A stretch of DNA of 64,000 nt, taken from Vermamoeba vermiformis. Taxonomy: Eukaryota. The DNA is taken from positions 186,001 to 250,000 of the forward strand of contig JBEWZL010000083.1 of NCBI GenBank assembly GCA_045837725.1. Direction: 5' to 3'. The notes under the pieces were generated by a model. The model worked only from the letters and a program-made list of their open reading frames with translations, had not been told where the DNA came from and ran no database searches. Positions 3,151-54,953 of this stretch are shown in pieces (positions within the stretch are counted from its first letter, which is position 1; each line of letters begins with the position of its first letter). The translations under genes were made by a program, and so were the position numbers.

Positions 3151-6100
3151 TTAAAACAACACATCCGCTACATGCACGCATTGTTTGTCGTGCTGCAGTG
3201 CCACGAGATTGACGTAACACTGCTGGTGCGCGGTGCCCCAATGCAGATACACGTGCACCAAGGCGTGCACTGGCTGCGCGACTGTCTTGCTCTTGGCGTT
3301 GAACAGCTCCACTTCAATGCGATACAGGCCCGGCACTGCACGGCGCAACAAGTACTCTTCAGGCCCGAGACCATTGGCCATGTCCTTGCTCAACGTGCCG
3401 CCGTTCTGCGTCGTGTTGTTGAAGGCGTAGCAGTGCGCCAAGCCGGGCTCGTACACGTGCAGATTCAGATCCACTTGATCCAGATCCCACTGCACCGTCA
3501 CGCGCAGATCAATCTCGAGTGGAATGTCGAGGTCTATCTTCTGGTGGTGCAGCAGCTGCATCAACTTGTCGCACTGCGAGTAGTGCTCGTCCAACAGCTC
3601 GCTCATCAGTCGCACCGCGCGGTTCACTTCCATCAGTGCCACCACTTCTACTTGCGTGAAGCGCACGTCCCACTCTTTTTCCTAAAATAGAAGGTGTCAG
3701 TTTCGTGTCATCACGTGATAGTATTTTAATTCATTCCAACGATACTCACGATGACATCTGTCAAAAGTGTCAATGCACGTGTCAAGTCTCCGCGCACTCC
3801 TCTGCGCACCAGCACACGTGCCAGATCGAGATAACTTTGCGGTTCTTCACTGCGGAGTGCCAGCACGCGGTCGTAGAGGTGTATTGCGTGCTCAATCAGC
3901 GCGTGTTGTTCGCACGCGTAGGCCAACAGTCGCATCCACTTGTGCTCGTTGAGCTGCGACTCGACCATGTTGGACAGCACGCGCAGTCCGACACGTGACA
4001 GCTCTGCGCCCTGGTTGAGTAATTTGCAGCCGAGGTGCAAATAAAAGTACGGAGTGCGGTGCGTGACGGAATTATAGTAATTCCGCAGTGCCTGTTCAGT
4101 GCTCACGTGCTCCTCGCGCAGCTCCGCAGACTCGTACAGGTGCAGCGTGACTGTCTTGCCGAGCGGCGTGCAGTGCTGGCGCGATCTATTTTTAGCGTAC
4201 ACGAATGAGGGTGTGGCACGTGACACCGGAACAATATCCTGACTGAAGTCCATCAAGTTGTCCTGTTCTTCCAAGAATGAGCTGTATTCCGAGGGCTCGG
4301 AAGAATTGTCGCTGCACGATGCAATCTCCGAGGTGGGAGATGCAGAGCGAGATCGCACCAAGCGTTGTTCCGGCGAGGCAGCACGTGAAGTGATACGACG
4401 TCGTTTGGGCAGTGCGCTGAGCTCTGCGTCACGTGCTCGTTTGCGCGAGTCAGTAGCGACCCGCTCTTCGGGTAATTCCGGGGAATAGTTCGGGGAGGTC
4501 GGGGAGTAATCGGGGGACGCGGGTGAGTAGTTCGGGGAACAGGCGGAGTACACGGGACTGTGCTGCGCGGAAGTGATGTTCATCGCCTCATTCTGATTGT
4601 ACGCGCACGAGGTCGGGGCGGAGTACTGCGAGGTCGGGGAGTAATCAGGGGAGGCGGGCGAATACTCCGGGGAGTGTGGCTCGTAACGCGGACTGCGGGG
4701 CGAATAGTGCGGGGAGGTCGGGGAGTAATCGGGGGACACGGGTGAGTAGTGCGGGGAAGTAGGTGCGTACTGCGGGGAGGTCGGGGCATAGCGCGGGGAG
4801 GTCGGGGTGTAGTTCGGGAGATTGAGGCTGTGATGCACCGAGTGCGGGAGGTAGTTCGGGGAGACCGGGGAATAATTCGGGGAGGAAGGTGAATAGCTCG
4901 GGGTGACGGGAGAATATGTCGGGGAGGTCGGGGTGTAGCGCGGGGCAGTCGGGGTGTAGCGCGTAGTTTGAGGCAGCAAACGAGGCTGCAAAACTGCAAG
5001 TGACACGTGTCGTTCAGCGTGTTGCGCCATGTAGTGCGAGAACGTGTCTGCAAAGTTGAGCGAGCTAAAAATAGGTCGGGAATATTCTTGGCGCCACATA
5101 GCCATCAGCAGCTCAGGGCTCTGATCGCGTGTCATCTGCTGATTGACAGGTGTCACTTCGAGTGTCGCACAGCGATCACTGTCGTGCGTGTCGACCAGGG
5201 CAGAGATGCGTTCAGATTCGAGTTCGCTGTAATGGCGCGGTGGCACGTGATGCAGTGTCATGCAGGGTTTGACACCTGTCATCGACCAGTCACGTGACCA
5301 CCAATCCAATCGGCGCTGCCACCAGTCCAAAGCATGGTGCCATCGATGGCGCTGCTTGTTGAACGCTTTTCTTTTTTTGGCAGCGAGCAAGAGGTGATAC
5401 TGCTGGTGGCACGTGGCATGGCTGGCGGGCGGTTCAATCTCGTAGCGGAGATACTGCGAGACATCATCGAGTACGATTAAGGAAGTCGCGCCAGGAGTGA
5501 CCAGGCCAAACAGCCGTCCTATTTTTAGCAACGCTTTCTTGCTCTGCTCTTCGTTCTGATTGGTCACCAACATCTCTTCGATCTTCTTGGAGGCTAATTA
5601 TAGAACTGGTCAGCACCATTACTATAAATGGCAAGCAACGTACCGAAGAACTTGGGAATGAGGGGTGCAGCGGTGACGTCATCGAGCTGAATGGTGAGAG
5701 TCACGTGCTTGCTGACCACCACGCGACTGCCATAGCCAAAGTTCTGCAACGGATTAGAATGAGCATAACCAAATATGGTAATATCGATGCGTACCATGGT
5801 GATGGGCACGGTGATGGAGTTCGATTTTTTCACTGAATCTGAAGTGACAGGTGTCACCGTGACTTTTCCTGTCAAAATGAAGTTCGCGCGGGTCAAAGGA
5901 GTGGCACGTGATGGATAAGTCTCCAGCGCGACACCGGGTATCTCCGCGCTGAGATTCAAAAACGAGAAGTGAGGTCTGCCCACCGTTCTGAGCACGTGAT
6001 CGATGCTGCTGTTTTGCAGATTAAAAAACACGCCACCCTGTCAAATGACACGTGTCAAACAGAGATCTCAGCCAACCATGTCACGTGACTTACCGTAGTC

Positions 6101-7410
6101 TGTGCGAGTGCGCGCAAGAGAGCAGCGTTGTGCACGACATTGGCAGTGACGGCATACACTGGCGCAGCTATTTTTAGCTCGGTGAAATTAACGCGCGCTC
6201 CAATAGATGAAATTCCGTCGGAGAACAACAAGATGTAGTCGAACACGTGATTCAGTTTGACACGTGTCATAATGCTGAGATCAGTCGCGCCATCGTACTC
6301 AATGCTTTGCAGAAATTGCAGCAGTTGGGTGACATCGCGCTCTTGCTTAATTTGGAAAATGCGTTCTTCTTCGCACTCATTTCTAAATATGTACACGACG
6401 AGCTTGACGGGCGCAGTCAACTCTTGATTTAGTAATTGCCTCATCAAACTGCGAGGGTCAGTACGATTGCTTAATTAGGAAATAAGTCACTGACCTGAAC
6501 TCAACGCTCTTGTCAGTGGCACGACTCAACGATGCATCCCAAAATAGACCAATTGTCTTGGGTTCATTGACACGTGTCATTGACTGCTCGTTGACTTGCG
6601 GCACGTGACAGCGCGCAATGAAGTAGTGACAGCTGTCAAAGTAGGTGCTGTCATCGGGGTCAGTCAGATCTGACGCGCGTTGCGGTCTGATCGCGCGAGT
6701 GACAGTTGCGCCATCACGTGGGTCAAATTGAAGTGTCAAACCACGTGACATCCTGAGATTGGTGACACGTGTCATGGCCTGGTGACCAGCCAACTTGAAA
6801 TTAGCATCGCGTGCTGCAATATCCGGGGCGGTGAGTGTCACGTGCTGCGTGAGTTCATTGTGCGTGATCACGTGACAGCTGAACGTGTCAATCGGTGCGT
6901 TGAATGAGAGGGGCACGCGACACACTCCCGTGTCAATCAGGGACACGAATCGCAGTCGAATGCGTCGGCCAGACTTGGGCACTGGGTACACGCGAATGCG
7001 GTATACATTGCCAGTCACGTGCTCGCAGATTGCAATTCTGCCCGCGACAGTAGATCTGACCGCGTTTTCAAAGGCCACTTGAGCTTGTTCGCGCTCAACG
7101 ACCACGCCCTGGACAAGCACGGAATCTATGTCAACCTCAAAGCCGGACACAGTGGCGCCTTCAGTGAGCACCAAGGTGATCTCTGCCTCCACGCCAGTGC
7201 GCGAGGTGGAATTGACAAAGTGGATGTCCACTTCTGTCTCTAAACCACGAGAGATGAGCGCGAGGGATAGGGAATTTGTAACTAATTTATGTAATTGGAT
7301 TATTTACCTGCAAGATAATTATTTAATTCGATTTTTAGGCTGAGATCGCGGATTTGAAGTTGTTGGCCATCGTCCTTCGCAACGACTTTGATACAACTCG
7401 TATCCGCCAT
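3151..7410 (-). CDS. VIT + vWA-like + TPR + DUF2135/YfaP-type protein with an inserted Pol II CTD-like heptad array
   Basis: ATG at 7410, first intron 7307-7240. VIT-like AETEVDIHFVN..GATVSGFEVDIDSVLVQGVVVEREQAQVAFE; vWA-like LFWDASLS..YDGATD..LFSDGIS; RSEEPQSYLDLA; C-terminal DLRVTVQWD..DLNLHVYEP..GLGPEEY typical of DUF2135. Confidence 0.8.
4470..4958 (-). repeat. 21-nt tandem coding repeat encoding ~20 YSPTSPx-like heptads
   Basis: Translation reads YTPTAPR YTPTSPT YSPVTPS YSPSSPN YSPVSPN ... YSPTSPH YSPRSPR ... YSPASPD YSPTSPN YSPE; the plus strand shows recurring ggggaggtcggggagta units. Confidence 0.95.
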
Positions 7411-47554: not shown

Positions 47555-49149
47555 ATGCGGTTTGAACTCGTCGTTGCAATTTTGTTTGGATTCCTTGCTG
47601 TGGGTCTAGGTAACGTTTCGATTACTAATTTTAAAAATTAGACTACTTTATCAAAAAATATTTTATAGATACAGCAATTGAATCAAATTATTATTATTGA
47701 CAGATCTGTCACCAGAAATTTTGAGTTTGATCCGCATTCTTGTGCGATTAGCGTAATATTAATTCTGCTAAAGCATCCAATCACGTTTAATAAATTGACG
47801 TAAACAATTTGACTATAGTCAAATTGACAAGCTCTGAACGTACTTCCAGAAAGATCCGCCTGCTGTCAACAGAATAGAATCTTCTAGGTTCTAATGTGTA
47901 CTCTTTTGTTTAGGTCAAATAACCCCTCTAATTCTCAATGCACCTCATGAGGCATCTATTCGCCAAGGAGAGTACTTGGACTTCGCTTACAGCTTTTCTC
48001 TCGGCGGAGAGAATGAGGATGTGGTAATTCGCGTTGAAGGAGATAGTAAGTATTTCGATTATAAGCACGCTCTCACTAACCACATTGCATCTAGCTGGCG
48101 ATATTTCATTGTTTGCATCAACTACGCCTGAGCCCAGACGGTAAATAGCTCAGCCCTCTGTAGTGCGGATCTAACCTTGAAATTACAGCGACTCTTACGA
48201 ATATAACTGGCGCTCATTGGACGGCGTTCATGATACACTCTATATCCCACGAAGACTTGCTACTAACCGCAAGGTGTACGTTTCTGTTTTCGGAGGAGCA
48301 GATTCAGTTTTCACGATTCGAGTTTATTCTCAACAAGGTACGTGTGAACGAATCATAATATTGTCACATATCTAATATTGTATTTCAGTCTTCTTGCCAT
48401 TCGAGAACTTGCTTACTCCCACCAACATCTACGACAGCGAAAGTCAATTCTACGCTTTTTGGGCAGCTGTTCCATCGAGTGATACTGTTGGACAATACAG
48501 ATTGAACGTCACTTTCTTGCGGTATGATACATCGTTATTAATTAGTACAAACGAATTCATGGTGTGCGATCCAGCTGATTAACTTACGATTCATTGAAGT
48601 GGCTCAGCAAATGTATTCATCGGATATCGCAATGCCGTGCCAGTGCCTGAATCCAACGACTTCAGATACGCCATTGAAGATATGCCTGCAGATCAAAATT
48701 CGTTGCTCATGACTGTTGAGGATGTGATGCCTGGTACGATTTCAACTCAGCTTTAATAGGAAATTTAGCTGTTATTAATATTCTTTGTATCATAGGCTGG
48801 TATTTTATTCGCGTTATTGGCACTGCAGAGGAGACTCAATTTACTATGCAGATGTTCCCTCCTGGCGCAGAAATACCAAGTAGGTAGAAGTGCTGCTAGT
48901 ATTATAATTACTTAAAAATGGTATAGGACCTGATGTACCCGAATTAACGCCACTTACTCTTGGCCTTATTGTTGGTGCATCCGTTTTTGTTGGAGCCATT
49001 GCAATTTCAGCCACTATTTACTTCTCATGCCGCGCTTATCAAAAGAGAGTAAGTCTAGCTCGTAATTAAAACGTGTTAATATTAATATTACTATTGTTTA
49101 GCAATTGAACAGAGAAGTCGCGTACCACAGAGTGCGAGAGAACTTGTAA
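47555..49149 (+). CDS. Hypothetical type I membrane protein with beta-rich ectodomain; many short exons, mostly missing from the ORF track
   Basis: Signal peptide MRFELVVAILFGFLAVGL; exons such as GDISLFASTTPEP, VYVSVFG and GWYFIRVIG; TM LTLGLIVGASVFVGAIAISATIYF followed by a basic tail. Confidence 0.65.
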
Positions 49150-49321
49150 TTTTGTTGTAATTATGCTGTCATTTATTTAGTTCCACGTGTTTAATAAATA
49201 TGCCACTGCAATGAATTCGAGAGTACTAAAATGAAGTTCACAATTGTTGCTGTTCGCTGGCCAGCATAAAAATCAGAATTATTTGAAAACGCCATTATTT
49301 TTACAAGCAAACAACACTTGC

Positions 49322-50470
49322 ATGCTTCGCAAAGCAGGTAATTACCTACTTTAAACACCCAAATAGTAATAGTTTTATGAAACGTCTCTGTAAGTAGAGC
49401 AATGAACCAACGAATTTCATGTATGTAGGACTGCTCCTTATCAATAATTGCCCGTTATGAGCTCTGCGCGAATAACTGGTATTAACATGTTTAATTTATT
49501 AATAATATGAATTCTGATTTTAAAATTTGAATAATGAAAACGGTATGGCAGAAAAAGTTAGGATTATTCAATATCTCAACCTAGCTCTAGAATTCTACCA
49601 TCTCGTAATAACATAAAAAATATCAATTACCACGACATATATGCTTAAAAGTTAGTGTCAGATACTTTTTCAAGACCTTTACGTGCAATTTCGTTTATGA
49701 AGCAGATCTGATAACATCTAATTAATTTAATTAATAATTACCAATTTTTAAATTGCTATGACCGATTTATTTCATTATTAACTGATGTTCGTTTTCCAGT
49801 TGGTGGATTGAGCGCGAACAAGCAGCTCTCTACGGAGAGCTCGCTGCCGCCGATGGCACAACCATCTATGCCGTCGATGGCCCCGCGCAAGCCTTTAATG
49901 ACAGACATGCCAATGCCCATGAGTCAGATGGCGATGCCCAGCATTGCTCCTCGAAAGGCCTTGAATACTGAGCCTGTGATTCTGCCGGTATGTTGTATAT
50001 TAAGATAGATCGGTGTGATGTAGCAAACAGCGCTATTCTAATGATGCACGTAACTTGAGTTTGACGGATTTGATCCTTTCAGTCTTCTCCGCAATACTCT
50101 CCGACCTCTCCAAGTTACAGTCCTTCACCTAGGAAACCGCTTCATACTGAATTAGTGCCTGTGAGCATTACTCGCACCAACTTTGTGAGTTTTCCAATTA
50201 CTGATCTGATCTATTTTTAGACTTCTAATGTTGCCTCATTTGGTATGGCGCCAAGAAAGCAATTGAGCACAGAACCAGTAAGTACTTCTCTTCGTCCGAA
50301 TATTCAAGAAGATTACTTATCGGAGTACAGGTGGAGGCAAAGCCAGATCGCTCTCGGGTGATGAACAAGGTGCAGCGTTCAATCAAGGCGCGCAGTCAGC
50401 TGAAGACAGGCGACGATGAAGTCCAGACTTTGGGTGAAGGTCTTAGTGCACGCAGTCAATTGACCACAGA
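49322..50470 (+). repeat. Degenerate coding repeat resembling histone H3 residues 14-23 (x-APRKQL-x-T-E)
   Basis: RKAVGGLSANKQLSTE (exons 1-2), MAPRKPLMTD (49877), IAPRKALNTE (49943), SPRKPLHTE (~50125), GMAPRKQLSTE (50242), and weaker IKARSQLKTG and GLSARSQLTTE. Confidence 0.8.
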
Positions 50471-53400
50471 AGATGACTACTCGTCCAGTTCCTTCGACTT
50501 GTCGTCCATGGCCATGAGTAACATGATTCAGCCGAGCATTAATTTTAGACGCCAAATGCAGACGCAACAAGAGCCCTCAGTGACGACATTCACGAACACT
50601 GACAGCGACGACTACTGGTCACAAGTCAATGTGCAACAGCAGCAACAGACGCAGCAGTTGTTGCAATTGGAGAACTTGTTGGTGCAACAGTCCAAGATCA
50701 ACAACTTGCACGCGCAACCGACTGTTATCGATGTCTTTGCAGCTATTCAGAAGGAAATGAGCGACGATCGATCGGTGCCACGTGACAGCCGAGTGGTGTT
50801 GTACAACGACGTGCCTTATGTCCCCGCTCAAGCCATTGCATCTACTTCACAACTAGACAACGAGTTAAACAAGTTGAATGAGTTGTTCGAGGCTGGATTT
50901 ATCATCAAAGAACAATACCATAAGAGGAAAAGAGATCTCATCGAAATGAAGGATCGATCGTTCGATGTCACCGTGCCACACTCAGATTACAGTTTCATTG
51001 CTCTGTCCTCAGGCAAGAGACAGCGCACTGAAGGCTCAACACGCAGCACTAATCGTAACATTCGTGTCTTCATTTCATCGACTTTCCGTGACATGTCTGA
51101 TGAGCGTGAGGCCATCATGAAGAAAGCAATTCCTGAGCTCCAAAAACTTGCTAAACAACGTGGTGTATTCTTGACAGCTGTAAGTACAAAAAATGTTGTT
51201 CATATCAACTTCTTACTAATATTTCCTAGGTCGATCTTCGCTGGGGTATCACGAGCGATCAAACCAACGAAGGCAATACATTGAACATTTGCTTGGCTGA
51301 AGTGGACAGATGTCGTCCGTACTTTGTCGGTCTCTTAGGTCAACGTTATGGTTGGAGTCAACCTTCATCGCGATCTAAGGAGACTGGACTGTTGAACGAA
51401 GCAGATCATCTCTTGAAGAAGACTTTTGACCGCGCACAACTCAACTACCCTTGGCTCGGTGACTACCGTGACCGGTCAGTGACTGAGTTGGAGGTAAGTC
51501 CTGGCTAGATTTCATTGCGTAAAGAGGGTATTAATCAGAATTTAGGTTCGACACGCTGTGTTGAATGATCTTCAAAGTGACAGCGCATCTCGTGCATTGT
51601 TTTACCTCCGCAGAAGCACACCAGGGTAAGTAGTGAAAAATAGGTGTTTCTATTTGCATAGTATTAACAACAATTAGATCCCGCGACGATGACCCCCGTT
51701 TGACTACATTGAAGGACGAGCTGTCGTCTTCATCTCTCAAATGTGCTCAATACAACTCTGTTGACGAGTTGGCACGCAAGCTCGTTGAAGACTTCAAAGT
51801 GCTGCTCGATCGTGATTTCCCCGCCAGCTCTGCCCCAGGTCCTCTCGACATTGAACGTGCCGGTCACATGGCCTTCCAAGAGTCGCGCTCTCGCGTGTAC
51901 ATTGGTCGCAAGCACTACTTTGACAAGATCAACGAACACTTCTCAAAGCCCAATCCCGGTCCTATTGTTGTCGTAGCTGACTCAGGTCTCGGTAAGAGTG
52001 CCTTGATGGCCAACTGGATGGTGCAGTACGCTGGTGGCGACGATGGTCGTCATTTGGTCATTTCAAACTACATTGGTTGCACAGCTGCTAGCACAGATCT
52101 CGGGCGATTGTTGCGCCGCATTTGTGCCGAAATTCAAGACTTCTGGAAGATCGACAAGCCAATCCCTACGGAGCTACCAAAACTCATCGAGAAATTCCCA
52201 GAATGGTTGAATGAAGCTGATGCACGCGGAGGCTGCACAATTTTGTTCGATGCAATTAACCAACTTGAAGCCAAGGACGACGCACACCTCTTGCGTTGGT
52301 TGCCGCGCAAGTTCCCTCCCTCTGTTCGAGTTCTCGTCTCTACTACACCCAGCACTTGTTTGCAATGGTTGAAGGATCGCGAATGGAACACAATGACTGT
52401 CGAGCCATTGACCACTGAAGAACGCAAGAATTTGATCGAAGAATACCTAGGTCAATACGGCAAAAAGATGACTCAAGCGCAAATTCAAAGGTAAACAGGT
52501 CGTACTACACTAGCGAGTGCTTTTCTAACACGTGAAACAGAGTTATGGCGTCCAATGCCTGTCAAAACCCTTTGTACTTGCGCACACTGTTAGAAGAGAT
52601 CAGAGTGTTCGGCAGCTTCGAACAGCTCGATGCGCACATTGACAGATATCTCCGTGCACAATCACCGCCTGAGCTCTTCCAACTTATCTTCCAACGTCTC
52701 GAACAAGATATTACCACTGTCGTCAACAGCTCTGTCTTCTCGGGTGCCAAATTGACCCTCGTATCCGCCGTGCTGGCTCTGTCTTGGGTCGCTCGTCGTG
52801 GTCTGACTGAAGTCGAGTTACTTGAACTGTTGGGCATCACAGCCTCGCAATGGGCTCCTCTTCACTTGGCCCTCGAAGAAGCTCTCGTGTCCCGTTCAGG
52901 TTTCTTCACGTTCTTCCACGACTACATGCGTCAAGCAGTCGAGTCGCGATACATTCGCAATGCTCAACCTACGTACCGCAAGGCCATCATTGAGTACTTC
53001 ACCAAGAGTCAATCCCAACGATGACAAGCGCGTGTACGAAGAGGTTCCTTATCAACTTGAACAATTGCAAGACTGGCGTGGCTTGGCAACGTTCATCACC
53101 GACTTGAAGAACTTTGACAAGTTGTCGCGCGGTGACAGCAAGTTCGATTTGTACCGCTACTGGCGCGCTGTCTCGAAGATGGGCGGTCAAGACCCCGAGA
53201 GCATGATCTTCAACAAGATTCAAACTCTCGCCAAGGAGACACCCGAGGAGAGTCGCAACACTGTGATGGACTGCCAAGCACAAGTCGGCAAGTTCTTGGA
53301 AGACATTGGCACGTACGAAATGGCCGAGACTTTGTACAGAGATTCCCTCTCACTCGCAGAGGAGCTCTACAAGCCCAACAGCAAAGAGGTGTTGGCGCGT

Positions 53401-54953
53401 GTCGACGACTTGGCTTACTTGTTGGTACGTATAATGATACTCGCGAGTATGACGCGTTTACTAATTCCTTCAATAGCGTCTCCGCGGTAAATACAACGAC
53501 GCTTTGCCTTTGTACAGCCGAGCCTTGCAAATCAAACAGGCACTCAGCCGCGAAGAGGACGCACAGTTGGCTCAAATCATGAACAGCACCGCCGTCTTGT
53601 ACAGATTGCGCGGTGAATACGACAAAGCCGAACCGTTGTACATGAAGGCCTTGGCCATTCGTCAGCGAATCTTTGGTGAGATCCATGAAGACGTGGCACA
53701 GTCGTACAACAGTTTGGGCTGTTTGTTGCAAGACATGGGTCGTTACAAGGAGGCTGAAGAGAACTTCTTGAAGTCCATCACGCAACGAGAGTTCTTGCTC
53801 GGTGTCAATCACCCTGATGTCGCCATGTCACTCAAGTACGTATCGACAGCATCAGCTGAGCGTTATATATCTTTTGCTAACCATTCCGTTACTAGTAACT
53901 TGGCTGGATTGTACTTGGACTGGAGCAAATACGACAAAGCCGGTCCGATCTACAAGCGCGCCTTGTCCATCTATCAAATGGTCTACGGTGAAAATCACCC
54001 GAACTACGCGCAGACCTTGAACAGTACGTGTTCCTATTGTCTGAGTAATGACCTGACATTTCCTTTTTAGGTATGGCCGGTTTGATGCAAGAACAAGGCA
54101 AGTTCTCCGAGGCCGAAGTGTTGTACAAGAAGACAGTGGCCATCAAAGAAAATCTCTTGGGCAGCATGCACCCTGAGCTTGCTCTCACGCTCAACGACTT
54201 CGCCGTGCTTTACGCGCGTCAAGATAAGTTCCCTGAAGCTGAAAATCTTTACCGCCGAGCCTTGCAAATCCGCAAGACAGTGTTGGGAGAAAATCATCCC
54301 GATTTCGCGCAGTCGCTCAGTAAGTCTACAACTACCTCCTCAATGCTCAATCTAACGCGTCAATAGAAAACTTGGGCTCGTTGTTCCAAGACCAAGGCCG
54401 CTACCCCGAAGCCAAGGCCAACTACGAGCAATGTCTGCGCATTCTCGAAGCTTCATTCGGTCGCAAGCACATGGACGTGGCGAGTGCCTTGCATCACTTG
54501 GCAGCCATCAATCAGCTGCAAGGCCTGTACAACGAGGCTATTCCGCTCTACAACCGCGCCCTCGACATTTACTACGAGTTGTTGGGCCCCGTGCACGCAG
54601 ACATTGCGTTGTCATTGAACGACTTGGCCATTTTGTACTTCAAACAGGGCAACAACAAGAAGGCCGAAGAGTACTACTTGAAGTCGATTGACAACTACAC
54701 GCAAGTGTTCACTCGTGTGCACCCTGATGTCGCTCAAGCACTGCTCAATATTGCTCAGTTCTACAAAGCAACTGGTATGATGAAATAGGTTGACACGCGT
54801 TTATTCAGCATAACTAACATATCTTTTATTTTAGGTCAAACCGCCAATGCCAAGAAGTTCTACCAGGAATCGATTGACATTTTCACGCAAACACTTGGTG
54901 CCTCGAACCCTCGCACGCAGAACGCTGTTGCAAGCTCCAAGAGTTTGAAGTAG
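49322..54953 (+). CDS. NPHP3/TEP1-like STAND protein: H3/CTD-mimic N-terminus + SHOCT + DUF4062 + NACHT-like NTPase + TPR array; one apparent frameshift near 53007
   Basis: SHOCT-like LNKLNELFEAGFIIKEQYHKRK; DUF4062 IRVFISSTFRDMSDER..DLRWG..CLAEVDRCRPYFVGLLGQRYGW; Walker A ADSGLGKS; Walker B ILFDAINQL; NPLYL; kinesin-light-chain-type TPRs (HPDVA, HPELA, HPDFA). Confidence 0.88.

What the first reader, a model, noticed from the sequence alone, without database searches (positions are those of the whole stretch)
50083..50184. Hidden 102-nt exon encoding a perfect Pol II CTD heptad fused to an H3-like repeat
Seen: between TTTCAG and GTGAGT, with phase-0 junctions on both sides, the exon reads SSPQ-YSPTSPS-YSPS-PRKPLHTELVPVSITRTNF. 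It is absent from the ORF track. Because it is symmetric it could be skipped without a frameshift, and an alternative in-frame donor lies at 50161. Two different nuclear-motif mimics are directly joined.
Basis: seen in the sequence. Interest (0 to 1): 0.75.

Follow-up and report, generated by a model that had tools for sequence, protein, structure and literature searches.

The report
Alternatively spliced repeat exon in NLR-like gene
The "hidden exon" is a real, optionally included coding exon, shorter than proposed, that adds one more copy of a family-specific short repeat to the floppy front end of an immune-receptor-like protein; its likeness to the RNA polymerase tail and to histone H3 looks incidental.

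Summary
The sequence is as described: AG|50083..50184|GT, phase 0 on both sides, with a perfect YSPTSPS. RNA-derived contigs show a real cassette exon. No contig uses donor 50185, which would leave a 36-nt intron. One run (X2) holds both inclusion (depth 7.41) and skipping (4.5). Two runs (X6, X1) hold only skipping.

The gene (about 49335-54953, + strand) encodes a nephrocystin-3-like DUF4062(NIR)-NACHT-TPR protein. Its low-confidence N-terminus carries eight copies of a unit of the form hydrophobic-x-P-R-K-x-L-x-T-E. The cassette is one of these copies. The unit recurs in the N-termini of 3 of 21 long-N-terminus homologues and in 0 of 21 shuffles.

The CTD likeness is marginal: Pfam 20.1 bits against a 20.3 cut-off, and 0 of 156 homologues have YSPxSP. 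The H3 likeness is not significant (E 0.76) and belongs mainly to the next exon.

The cassette supplies all five SP/TP sites of the N-terminal region. This is an ordinary in-frame cassette exon with a modestly interesting context.

The parts
49335..49420 (+). 5' exon, form A. An ATG at 49402 reads MNQRIS plus 1 base; donor GTATGT at 49421 (phase 1).
   Evidence: X6 contig piece 49335-49420 joined to 49800 (skips 379, GT..AG, depth 9.94). Frame.
49392..49478 (+). 5' exon, form B, with a longer donor. An ATG at 49457 reads MSSARIT plus 1 base; donor GTATTA at 49479 (phase 1).
   Evidence: X1 contig piece 49392-49477 joined to 49799/49800 (skips 321, GT..AG, cut +1, depth 7.43). Frame.
49800..49987 (+). 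Exon 2 (188 nt), carrying three repeat units: GGLSANKQLSTES, PSMAPRKPLMTDM, PSIAPRKALNTEP.
   Evidence: contig pieces in X1, X2 and X6. for the units. Four of five listed differences here are synonymous.
49988..50082 (+). Intron upstream of the cassette (95 nt, GTATGT..TTTCAG) in the inclusion form.
   Evidence: joint 49986/7>50082/3, skips 95, GT..AG, in X2 (depth 7.41).
50083..50160 (+). Cassette exon as used in RNA: 78 nt, phase 0/0, SSPQYSPTSPSYSPSPRKPLHTELVP. It holds one perfect heptad, five SP/TP sites, an SPRK site and repeat unit 4.
   Evidence: X2 record 3 spans 49958-49986 | 50082-50160 | 50221-50250..
50161..50184 (+). It is intronic in every contig seen.
   Evidence: no joint starts from 50184, and the joint 50160>50221 removes this stretch.
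50161..50220 (+). Intron downstream of the cassette (60 nt, GTGAGC..TTTTAG), with a branch-point-like TACTGAT at 50199-50205.
   Evidence: joint 50160>50221, skips 60, GT..AG, in X2 (7.41). Sequence.
49988..50220 (+). Single 233-nt intron of the skipping isoform.
   Evidence: joint 49986/7>50220/1 in X6 (9.94), X2 (4.5) and X1 (7.43).
50221..50277 (+). Exon 4 (57 nt, phase 0/0): TSNVASFGMAPRKQLSTEP. This is the most H3-like repeat unit.
   Evidence: pieces and joint 50277>50331 (X2, X1). H3.3 match at E 0.76.
50331..51179 (+). Exon 5 (849 nt). It holds repeat units 6-8, a Q-rich stretch, a confidently predicted helix hairpin (residues 172-209 = 50844-50957) and the start of DUF4062.
   Evidence: pieces. 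DUF4062 25.3 bits; pLDDT below 50 over residues 9-89 and 82-90 over the hairpin.
51230..54953 (+). Rest of the gene: DUF4062/NIR, NACHT, NPHP3-type helical domain and TPR_12/TPR_NPHP3 repeats, with the stop at 54951-54953.
   Evidence: DUF4062 35.8 bits, NACHT 37.9 bits, TPR_12 148 and 155 bits on window exons; tblastn of P0002. ORF ending at 54953.

Best explanation
The segment is a real, alternatively included, frame-preserving cassette exon. It is 78 nt (50083-50160), not 102 nt. It lies in the N-terminal low-complexity region of a nephrocystin-3-like NLR-type protein: a DUF4062/NIR TIR-like NADase domain, then NACHT, then TPR.

That N-terminal region is built from small phase-0 exons. Each carries one or more copies of a clade-specific short linear motif, roughly [S/G]-[I/M/L]-[A/S/N]-[P/x]-R-K-[P/Q/A]-[L/I/M]-x-T-[E/D]. 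The cassette is the fourth of eight copies.

Shown:
- the exon is present in mature RNA beside a skipping form;
- it carries the family repeat;
- it sits in a region predicted without structure.

Inferred:
- Inclusion raises the number of motif copies from 7 to 8.
- Inclusion also inserts the only proline-directed phosphorylation cluster of the N-terminal region: five SP/TP sites, including the only S-P-x-K type site, SPRK. In SPRK a serine replaces the alanine of the other APRK copies.
- Splicing would thus give an isoform whose docking array can be regulated by phosphorylation.
- The resemblance to the Pol II CTD comes from a Y/S/P-rich linker in front of the motif. The resemblance to H3 residues 15-22 comes from the motif consensus. 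Neither is the conserved, selected feature.
For: Splicing:
- X2 holds 49987>50083 and 50160>50221, both GT..AG, at depth 7.41.
- X2 also holds the skipping joint 49987>50221 at 4.5, with shared flanks at 11.4. By word depth that is about 62% inclusion.
- X6 (9.94) and X1 (7.43) hold only the skipping joint.
- All three runs' contigs lack the introns, so they derive from spliced RNA.

Repeat membership:
- The regex [PAS]R[KR].[LIM].T[ED] hits 4 times in the six frames of the 64-kb window. All four are in exons of this gene, and one is in the cassette.
- Eight units were extracted.
- An HMM built from the eight units hits the N-termini of P0002 (4 hits), P0004 (4) and P0008 (2). It hits none of the other 18 of 21 homologues with 80 or more residues before DUF4062, and 0 of 21 shuffled controls.
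- P0008 has YQPSSPSYAPRKPLMQ, a cassette-like unit.
- The cassette aligns to the exon-2 unit PMAQPSMPSMAP--RKPLMTDMPMPMS (tblastn E 0.017).

Constraint:
- P0158 is an ORF called on a relative's unspliced DNA (92% identical in exon 2). It reads the cassette in another frame.
- The six visible differences are explained by five third-position synonymous changes and one E>G change in the cassette's own frame.
- 33 of 38 listed differences in exons 2-5 are synonymous.

Gene identity: Pfam on window exons gives DUF4062 35.8 bits (cut-off 24.7), NACHT 37.9 (26.7) and TPR_12 148/155. The 81%-identical P0002 gives TPR_NPHP3 269 bits (cut-off 100). DUF4062 is reported as a TIR-like NADase at the N-terminus of eukaryotic NLR-like proteins (bioRxiv 10.64898/2026.09.04.749371, passages read).

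Phospho-cluster: the first 174 residues of the skipping isoform have 0 SP/TP sites, and the 26-residue cassette has 5, including SPRK.

Disorder: pLDDT is below 50 with no secondary structure over residues 9-89 of exon 5, which hold units 6-8 (alignment of 8 sequences).

Mimicry not conserved: 0 of 156 homologues have YSP.SP. Pfam Rpb1_R scores 20.1 against 20.3. H3 matches at E 0.76.
Against: - Inclusion is seen in one run only (X2). Its record says 'RNA?' as a guess.
- The inclusion contig's flanks are 29 and 30 letters, just under the 31 that the tool asks for before a record counts as bridging.
- Contigs cannot tell alternative splicing of one gene from two alleles, strains or paralogues that splice differently. 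X6 does show two sequence variants in exon 5.
- All contigs differ from the window by about 1.6-2.7% in exon 5, so they come from relatives or other alleles, not from the window's own sample.
- The raw-read poly(A) run X24 gave 0 reads of 12.9 million read, so it is no test.
- The one difference in the cassette in X2 is non-synonymous: P>L at 50123, in the partial second heptad.
- The P0158 argument cannot see changes at second codon positions of the cassette frame, and it rests on six sites.
- The partner of the motif, any phosphorylation, and any effect on the NACHT/NADase module are all untested.
- By the flanking composition an exact YSPTSPS is very improbable (about 3e-7). 'Incidental' therefore leans on the size of the scan and on lack of conservation, not on local chance.
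- No protein of 85-2000 residues in the 5.8-billion-protein database contains the exon in frame (weak evidence).
Confidence: 0.62

Rival explanations
1. Splicing noise, or an allele- or strain-specific exon without function. The cassette is a decaying or newly exonised repeat unit, included in some transcripts or some genotypes, and adds nothing the protein needs.
For: Two of the three runs with contigs (X6, X1) show only skipping. X6 shows variant contigs in exon 5, so mixtures of alleles or strains exist. The only change seen inside the included exon is non-synonymous. No database protein contains the exon. The orthologue P0002 starts downstream of it.
Against: Inclusion is the major form in X2 (7.41 against 4.5). 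The exon keeps frame, carries an intact copy of the family motif and has canonical GT..AG sites with a branch-point-like TACTGAT. In a relative, 5 of 6 visible changes are synonymous third-position changes in its frame. The homologue P0008 has a similar S/P/Y-rich unit as part of its protein.
Confidence: 0.2
2. Functional Pol II CTD mimic. The 15-residue stretch SPQYSPTSPSYSPSP is recognised by CTD kinases, phosphatases, prolyl isomerases or CID domains, and so ties this NLR-like protein to the transcription machinery or makes it a competitor or sensor for it.
For: Eleven consecutive residues are identical to consensus CTD (YSPTSPSYSPS aligned with YSPTSPSYSPT). The best hits among solved-structure sequences are CTD peptides (E 1.1e-3). 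These are chains of 20-42 residues, and the match spans about two heptads of them. Non-Rpb1 CTD mimics exist in yeast, in Trf4 and Sen1 (PMC4186968, PMC7110113; listing and abstracts only). Exact YSPTSPS is improbable from local composition. A neighbouring gene in the window also carries CTD-like heptads outside Rpb1.
Against: There is one full heptad only, and Pfam scores it below the gathering cut-off (20.1 against 20.3). 0 of 156 homologues have YSP.SP. The second partial heptad is broken (P>L) in the one RNA that includes the exon. The nearest cassette-like unit in P0008 reads SSPSYAPRKPL, which keeps the PRKPL core and not the heptad. Nothing shows that the protein is nuclear.
Confidence: 0.07
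3. Histone H3 tail mimic or integrated decoy. The repeated unit copies H3 residues 14-20 with a hydrophobic residue in place of K14. It acts as pseudo-substrate or bait for enzymes or readers that act on the H3 tail, for instance pathogen effectors, and couples their presence to activation of the NLR-like module.
For: GMAPRKQLSTE aligns with GKAPRKQLATK of H3.3, 8 of 11 residues identical. The hydrophobic residue four places before the K is kept in most copies here and in P0004 and P0008. NLRs with integrated decoys are an established concept (PMC4246468, PMC13037943; listing and abstracts). Bacterial effectors that methylate H3K14 are known (PMC10104843; abstract).
Against: The H3 match is not significant (E 0.76-1.0). 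The commonest form of the motif in this family has P where H3 has Q. Several copies are far from H3 (ARSQLKTG, NFRRQMQT, INSRKPMS). The related P0013 has yet another form (SYSRPLD). The cassette's own copy (SPRKPLHTE) is among the less H3-like. There is no functional data.
Confidence: 0.04

Closest known systems
Nephrocystin-3 (NPHP3) and other eukaryotic NIR/DUF4062-NACHT NLR-like proteins (TEP1, NWD1, NWD2, TTC41)
   Same: The window exons match DUF4062, NACHT, the NPHP3 helical domain (below cut-off) and NPHP3-type/KLC-type TPRs. The NIR domain lies on the N-terminal side of the NACHT, as described for most eukaryotic NIR proteins.
   Different: A 250-residue extension precedes the NIR domain. 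It consists of eight copies of a short basic-P-L motif, a Q-rich stretch and a helix hairpin. Most of the 156 homologues have only about 8-20 residues there; 21 of 156 have 80 or more. Part of the extension is alternatively spliced.
RNA polymerase II Rpb1 C-terminal heptad repeat (Pfam PF05001) and known CTD mimics (Nrd1-interacting motifs of yeast Trf4 and Sen1)
   Same: One exact YSPTSPS followed by YSPS, with 11 consecutive residues identical to consensus CTD. Like the yeast mimics, it is a short CTD-like stretch in a non-polymerase protein (PMC4186968, PMC7110113; abstracts only).
   Different: There is no tandem array. It scores below Pfam's cut-off, lies at an N-terminus, is not conserved in homologues, and no binding to any CTD-interacting domain has been shown.
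Histone H3 N-terminal tail (residues about 14-22) and histone mimics
   Same: The neighbouring exon's GMAPRKQLSTE shares APRKQL.T with H3.
   Different: The match is statistically insignificant. The motif is repeated eight times in variable forms, and its conserved core is R-K-[P/Q]-[L/I/M]. The cassette's own copy has P for Q and H for A. That viral and other histone mimics exist is recalled, not checked here.
In-frame cassette micro-exons in disordered regions that add or remove short linear motifs and phosphosites
   Same: It is a symmetric phase-0 exon of 78 nt in a low-confidence, low-complexity region. Both isoforms keep the frame. The exon carries a motif copy and clustered SP/TP sites.
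   Different: It is seen here in an unidentified eukaryote with 50-60-nt introns. Regulation and consequence are unknown. This general class is recalled from the literature, not searched here.

Membership tests
Alternatively spliced cassette exon | Inclusion junctions on both sides present in RNA | tested here: met
   X2 joints 49987>50083 and 50160>50221, GT..AG, depth 7.41. One run only, with flanks of 29-30 letters.
Alternatively spliced cassette exon | Skipping junction present in RNA | tested here: met
   49987>50221 in X6 (9.94), X2 (4.5) and X1 (7.43).
Alternatively spliced cassette exon | Both forms come from one gene in one genotype | tested here: inconclusive
   Contigs cannot separate alleles, strains or paralogues. 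X6 shows two variants in exon 5. Raw reads (X24) gave 0 laid.
Alternatively spliced cassette exon | Frame preserved in both forms | tested here: met
   78 nt (and 102 nt) are multiples of 3, and translations of both isoforms are open.
Rpb1 CTD heptad repeat (PF05001) | Score at or above Pfam's gathering cut-off | tested here: not met
   20.1 bits against a cut-off of 20.3 (E 7.3e-4). The 48-residue ORF scores 18.1 bits.
Rpb1 CTD heptad repeat (PF05001) | Consensus heptad YSPTSPS present | tested here: met
   one exact copy at 50095-50115, followed by YSPS.
Rpb1 CTD heptad repeat (PF05001) | Tandem array of many heptads at the C-terminus of the Pol II largest subunit | tested here: not met
   There are about 1.6 heptads in the N-terminal region of a DUF4062-NACHT-TPR protein.
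Rpb1 CTD heptad repeat (PF05001) | Heptad conserved among homologues of the host protein | tested here: not met
   0 of 156 homologues have YSP.SP. In X2 the second partial heptad reads YSLS.
Functional CTD mimic | Binding to a CTD-interacting domain, or modification by CTD kinases or phosphatases | not testable with these tools
Histone H3 tail / histone mimic | Significant sequence similarity to the H3 tail | tested here: not met
   H3.3 at E 0.76 and H3.2 at E 1.0, for the neighbouring exon. The cassette peptide's search of solved-structure sequences returned no histone.
Histone H3 tail / histone mimic | H3-specific residues kept across the repeat copies | tested here: not met
   the copies vary (PRKPL, PRKAL, PRKQL, ARSQL, FRRQM; SRKPM and PRKPI in P0004). 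The core is R-K-[P/Q]-[L/I/M].
NPHP3-like NIR(DUF4062)-NACHT-TPR NLR-like protein | DUF4062/NIR domain above cut-off | tested here: met
   window 51230-51496 scores 35.8 bits (cut-off 24.7); exon 5 scores 25.3 bits.
NPHP3-like NIR(DUF4062)-NACHT-TPR NLR-like protein | NACHT NTPase domain with a P-loop | tested here: met
   window 51682-52491 scores NACHT 37.9 bits (cut-off 26.7). GLGKS is seen.
NPHP3-like NIR(DUF4062)-NACHT-TPR NLR-like protein | NPHP3-type TPR domain above cut-off | tested here: inconclusive
   Single window exons score 88.1 and 94.4 bits, below the cut-off of 100. The full 81%-identical orthologue P0002 scores 269 bits. TPR_12 is far above its cut-off on window exons.
NPHP3-like NIR(DUF4062)-NACHT-TPR NLR-like protein | Catalytic glutamate of the NIR domain and NADase activity | not tested
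   The window has CLAEVDRC. A C-x-x-E-[IVL] motif occurs in 117 of 156 homologues, but I did not map it onto the published catalytic residue. Activity cannot be tested here.

The most novel reading that the evidence does not exclude
The N-terminal array is a set of integrated bait motifs on an NADase-type NLR. It would hold eight H3(14-20)-like pseudo-substrate copies, each with a hydrophobic residue where H3 has K14, plus an optional CTD-like, proline-directed phospho-module supplied by the cassette exon. Enzymes of intracellular parasites or viruses that act on the H3 tail or the Pol II CTD would dock on or modify the array and so trigger the NACHT-NIR module. Alternative splicing would set which class of enzyme is sensed.
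Probability: 0.04. Interest if true: 0.85.

Novelty: new member of a known kind. Interest (0 to 1): 0.3.

Why it matters
As it stands, this corrects a gene model. The NLR-like gene has at least two N-terminal isoforms, and no predicted protein found in the public database holds the optional exon.

It also flags an uncharacterised repeated short motif in front of the NIR (DUF4062) NADase domain in a small clade of eukaryotic NLR-like proteins. NIR domains have only just been shown to be NADases in bacterial immunity and in human TEP1, and what controls the eukaryotic NLR-like forms is open.

An N-terminal docking array whose copy number and phosphorylatability are set by splicing would be one concrete, testable control point. 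If the mimic or decoy reading were true, it would extend the integrated-decoy principle to short linear motifs in a protist NLR. The present evidence makes that unlikely.

Tried and rejected
- Raw-read test of splicing: X24 (poly(A) RNA, same species label as X1) gave 0 reads laid of 12,895,792 read, about 2% of the run. This is no test.
- Related DNA in metagenomes: a protein-guided scan with exon 5 found 593 pattern matches but no relative. An exact 22-nt pattern from the heptad-coding part found 0.
- Own genome: none is held. I could not count heptads genome-wide or fetch the organism's own Rpb1 or H3.
- Earlier notes of this scan: none for this genome.
- ESM Atlas on the pre-DUF4062 240 residues: no usable hit.
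- Rfam and tRNA scans of the window: 0 matches, so no RNA gene explains the segment.
- Origin by DNA repeat or transposon, or by copying from the heptad-rich gene at about 4.4-5.0 kb: the best non-self blastn match of 49988-50220 is 13 nt (E 0.18). Rejected.
- Database proteins containing the exon: a 34-residue query was too short. The 48-residue ORF found none at E up to 10 among proteins of 85-2000 residues. Exon 2 found only P0158, an ORF called through the intron of a relative's DNA.
- My first guess of a start exon at 49322-49337 is rejected. RNA contigs show 5' exons ending at 49420 or 49478.
- SHOCT-domain idea for the helix hairpin: Pfam gave no such match at E up to 0.01. Not claimed.
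The codon-position argument therefore rests on its protein sequence only.
- Supplements of the NIR preprints were not seen. They may list this clade.
Full report
**1. Observation**

It lies between ...cctttcag and gtgagt..., and it translates to SSPQYSPTSPSYSPSPRKPLHTELVPVSITRTNF. The upstream exon ends at 49987 in phase 0 and the downstream exon begins at 50221 in phase 0. A second in-frame donor, GTGAGC, lies at 50161. YSPTSPS occurs once in the six-frame translation of the 64-kb window, and that is here.

**2. RNA evidence**

One search for public runs and one lay were allowed. I laid four runs on 49200-51300.

- The raw-read poly(A) run X24 gave 0 reads of 12.9 million read, so it is no test.
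- The contigs of X6, X2 and X1 cover the exons and not the introns, and they carry GT..AG joints. They therefore derive from spliced RNA.
- They differ from the window by about 1.6-2.7% in exon 5, so they come from relatives or other alleles.
- The skipping joint 49987>50221 is present in all three runs: X6 at depth 9.94, X2 at 4.5, X1 at 7.43.
- Only X2 holds the exon. Record 3 runs 49958-49986 | 50082-50160 | 50221-50250 at depth 7.41.
- The two X2 branches sum to about the depth of the shared flanks (11.4). That is what a splice bubble looks like, and it gives roughly 62% inclusion.
- The included exon ends at 50160, so it is 78 nt and encodes SSPQYSPTSPSYSPSPRKPLHTELVP. The intron behind it is 60 nt.
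- No contig uses the donor at 50185. That donor would leave a 36-nt intron with the branch-like TACTGAT only about 19 nt away. The other RNA-supported introns here are 50, 53, 60, 95, 233, 321 and 379 nt.

Caveats: this is one run, its RNA label is a guess, and the flanks are 29-30 letters. Contigs also cannot separate isoforms from alleles.

**3. The gene**

The exons belong to a + strand gene from about 49335 to the stop at 54951-54953. Pfam on window exons gives the following:

| Domain | Score (bits) | Cut-off (bits) |
|---|---|---|
| DUF4062 | 35.8 | 24.7 |
| NACHT | 37.9 | 26.7 |
| NPHP3 helical domain | 21.4 | 27.9 (below cut-off) |
| TPR_12 | 148 and 155 | 30.1 |

The 81%-identical database protein P0002 scores TPR_NPHP3 at 269 bits against a cut-off of 100. 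The gene is therefore a nephrocystin-3-like NLR-type STAND protein.

DUF4062 was reported in 2026 preprints to be a TIR-like NADase ('NIR'). It acts in bacterial antiphage systems and in human TEP1, and it sits at the N-terminus of many eukaryotic NLR-like proteins. Human NPHP3 showed no activity under the conditions tested (10.64898/2026.09.04.749371, passages read; the other preprints were seen only in the listing).

**4. What the exon encodes**

The 250 residues in front of DUF4062 are unusual for the family. Of 156 homologues (6 and 150), only 21 have 80 or more residues there.

In the window protein this region holds eight copies of a short unit:

1. GGLSANKQLSTES
2. PSMAPRKPLMTDM
3. PSIAPRKALNTEP
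4. YSPSPRKPLHTEL (the cassette)
5. FGMAPRKQLSTEP
6. RSIKARSQLKTGD
7. EGLSARSQLTTED
8. PSINFRRQMQTQQ

- The stricter pattern [PAS]R[KR].[LIM].T[ED] occurs four times in all six frames of the window, and all four are in these exons.
- An HMM of the eight units finds 4, 4 and 2 copies in the N-termini of P0002, P0004 and P0008. It finds none in the other 18 long N-termini and none in 21 shuffled controls.
- P0013 has a visibly related but different repeat (SISYSRPLD and similar) that the HMM does not reach.
- P0008 has YQPSSPSYAPRKPLMQ, a Y/S/P-rich lead-in to a PRKPL copy, like the cassette.
- The cassette aligns with the second unit of exon 2: PQYSPTSPSYSPSPRKPLHTEL against PMAQPSMPSMAP--RKPLMTDM (E 0.017).
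- There is no DNA-level repeat or transposon origin.

The cassette is thus a diverged copy of the gene's own repeat unit.

**5. Constraint**

- Of the 38 differences between the window and the RNA contigs that the tool listed in exons 2-5, 33 are synonymous. Two further differences were not shown by the tool.
- P0158, the only hit to exon 2, is an ORF called on a relative's unspliced DNA. It runs through the intron and reads the cassette in another frame.
- Its six visible differences inside the cassette are each explained by one base change. Five of these are third-position synonymous changes in the cassette's own frame, and one is E>G.
- Changes at second positions of the cassette frame would mostly be invisible this way, so the evidence is modest. 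It points to a coding constraint.
- Against this, the one difference in X2's included exon is P>L, in the partial second heptad.

**6. The two 'mimics'**

CTD:
- Eleven consecutive residues equal consensus CTD, and the best hits among solved-structure sequences are CTD peptides (E 1.1e-3).
- Pfam's Rpb1 repeat model gives 20.1 bits against a cut-off of 20.3.
- There is one full heptad only.
- None of the 156 homologues has YSPxSP.

H3:
- The likeness is strongest in the next exon. GMAPRKQLSTE against GKAPRKQLATK scores E 0.76, which is not significant.
- The cassette's own copy has P and H where H3 has Q and A.
- The family's conserved core is R-K-[P/Q]-[L/I/M], preceded four places earlier by a hydrophobic residue.

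I therefore read both resemblances as by-products of a Y/S/P-rich linker and of the motif consensus. One point in favour of something more: by the composition of the flanking region an exact heptad is very improbable (about 3e-7 for 26 positions). The cassette is compositionally distinct from its neighbours.

**7. Likely working**

- Shown: there are two in-frame isoforms, and the optional part carries one motif copy.
- Shown from sequence: the first 174 residues of the skipping isoform contain no SP or TP at all. The 26-residue cassette contains five, including the only [ST]-P-x-[KR] site, SPRK, which sits exactly where the other copies have APRK.
- Predicted: the region with units 6-8 has pLDDT below 50 and no secondary structure. 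A helix hairpin at exon-5 residues 172-209 is confident, at 82-90 (eight-sequence alignment, so weak evidence for disorder).
- Inferred: the array is a multivalent docking region for an unknown partner, in front of the NADase-type effector domain. Inclusion of the cassette adds an eighth copy that, unlike the others, can be switched by proline-directed phosphorylation.

I put about 0.9 on 'real coding cassette exon that belongs to the repeat family', about 0.85 on 'mimicry not the selected feature', and about 0.3 on the phospho-switch idea. The overall figure is 0.62.

**8. Comparison and novelty**

In-frame cassette exons that add motifs and phosphosites to disordered regions are a known kind; this is recalled, not searched. 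The NLR-like family is known.

What is new is small:
- an unannotated isoform;
- a corrected exon boundary;
- an undescribed repeat in a few NIR-NACHT-TPR proteins.

I found no paper on this repeat. The searches were not aimed at it specifically, and APRKQL had 0 occurrences in all 12 papers listed. Supplements were closed.

The boldest reading not excluded is an integrated decoy of short H3-like and CTD-like baits on an NADase NLR. I give it about 0.04.

**9. Verdict**

This is an ordinary mechanism in a moderately interesting protein. Interest 0.3.

Noticed in passing
window 3726-7303 (-), heptads at about 4479-4961: A different gene encodes a VIT domain (57.5 bits). Further on it has about two dozen degenerate CTD-like heptads (YSPVSPD, YSPTSPH, YSPRSPR, YAPTSPQ and others). 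These match Pfam's Rpb1 repeat model at E 1.7e-16 (59.9 bits against a cut-off of 20.3). This is a far stronger non-polymerase CTD-like array than the finding itself, in the same window.
   Followed up: partly
window 49335-49478 (+): There are two alternative donors for the 5' exon: 49420|GTATGT in X6 and 49478|GTATTA in X1. Each leaves a different in-frame ATG (49402 or 49457) and ends in phase 1, so the two forms give different first 7-8 residues. They come from differently labelled runs, so they may be strain differences.
   Followed up: partly
window 50279-50517 (+): Run X6 holds two variant contigs of exon 5 (depths 6.51 and 5.5). One has a 3-nt AGA insertion after 50424. The other has 21 unlike letters between 50279 and 50363. 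The orthologue P0002 also lacks three residues (EAK) here. This points to alleles, paralogues or mixed strains.
   Followed up: no
window 50844-50957 (+), exon-5 residues 172-209: A confidently predicted helix hairpin (pLDDT 82-90) has the pattern ELxKLxELFxxGFIxxxEY. It is shared with P0003, P0008, P0009, P0013 and P0021 just upstream of DUF4062. No Pfam family matches it at E up to 0.01.
   Followed up: partly
runs /: The stretch is held at 95-99% identity in runs filed under at least three different organism codes (A, B, D) and in a biofilm metagenome. A deep poly(A) run with the same species label as X1 gave no read. The source may be an associate or contaminant of the labelled organisms rather than those organisms.
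   Followed up: no
window 48908-49048 (+): The upstream ORF ends in a hydrophobic, transmembrane-like stretch (LTLGLIVGASVFVGAIAISATIYF), followed by a GTAAGT donor in phase 0. It appears to belong to a separate upstream gene, because its phase does not fit exon 2.
   Followed up: no
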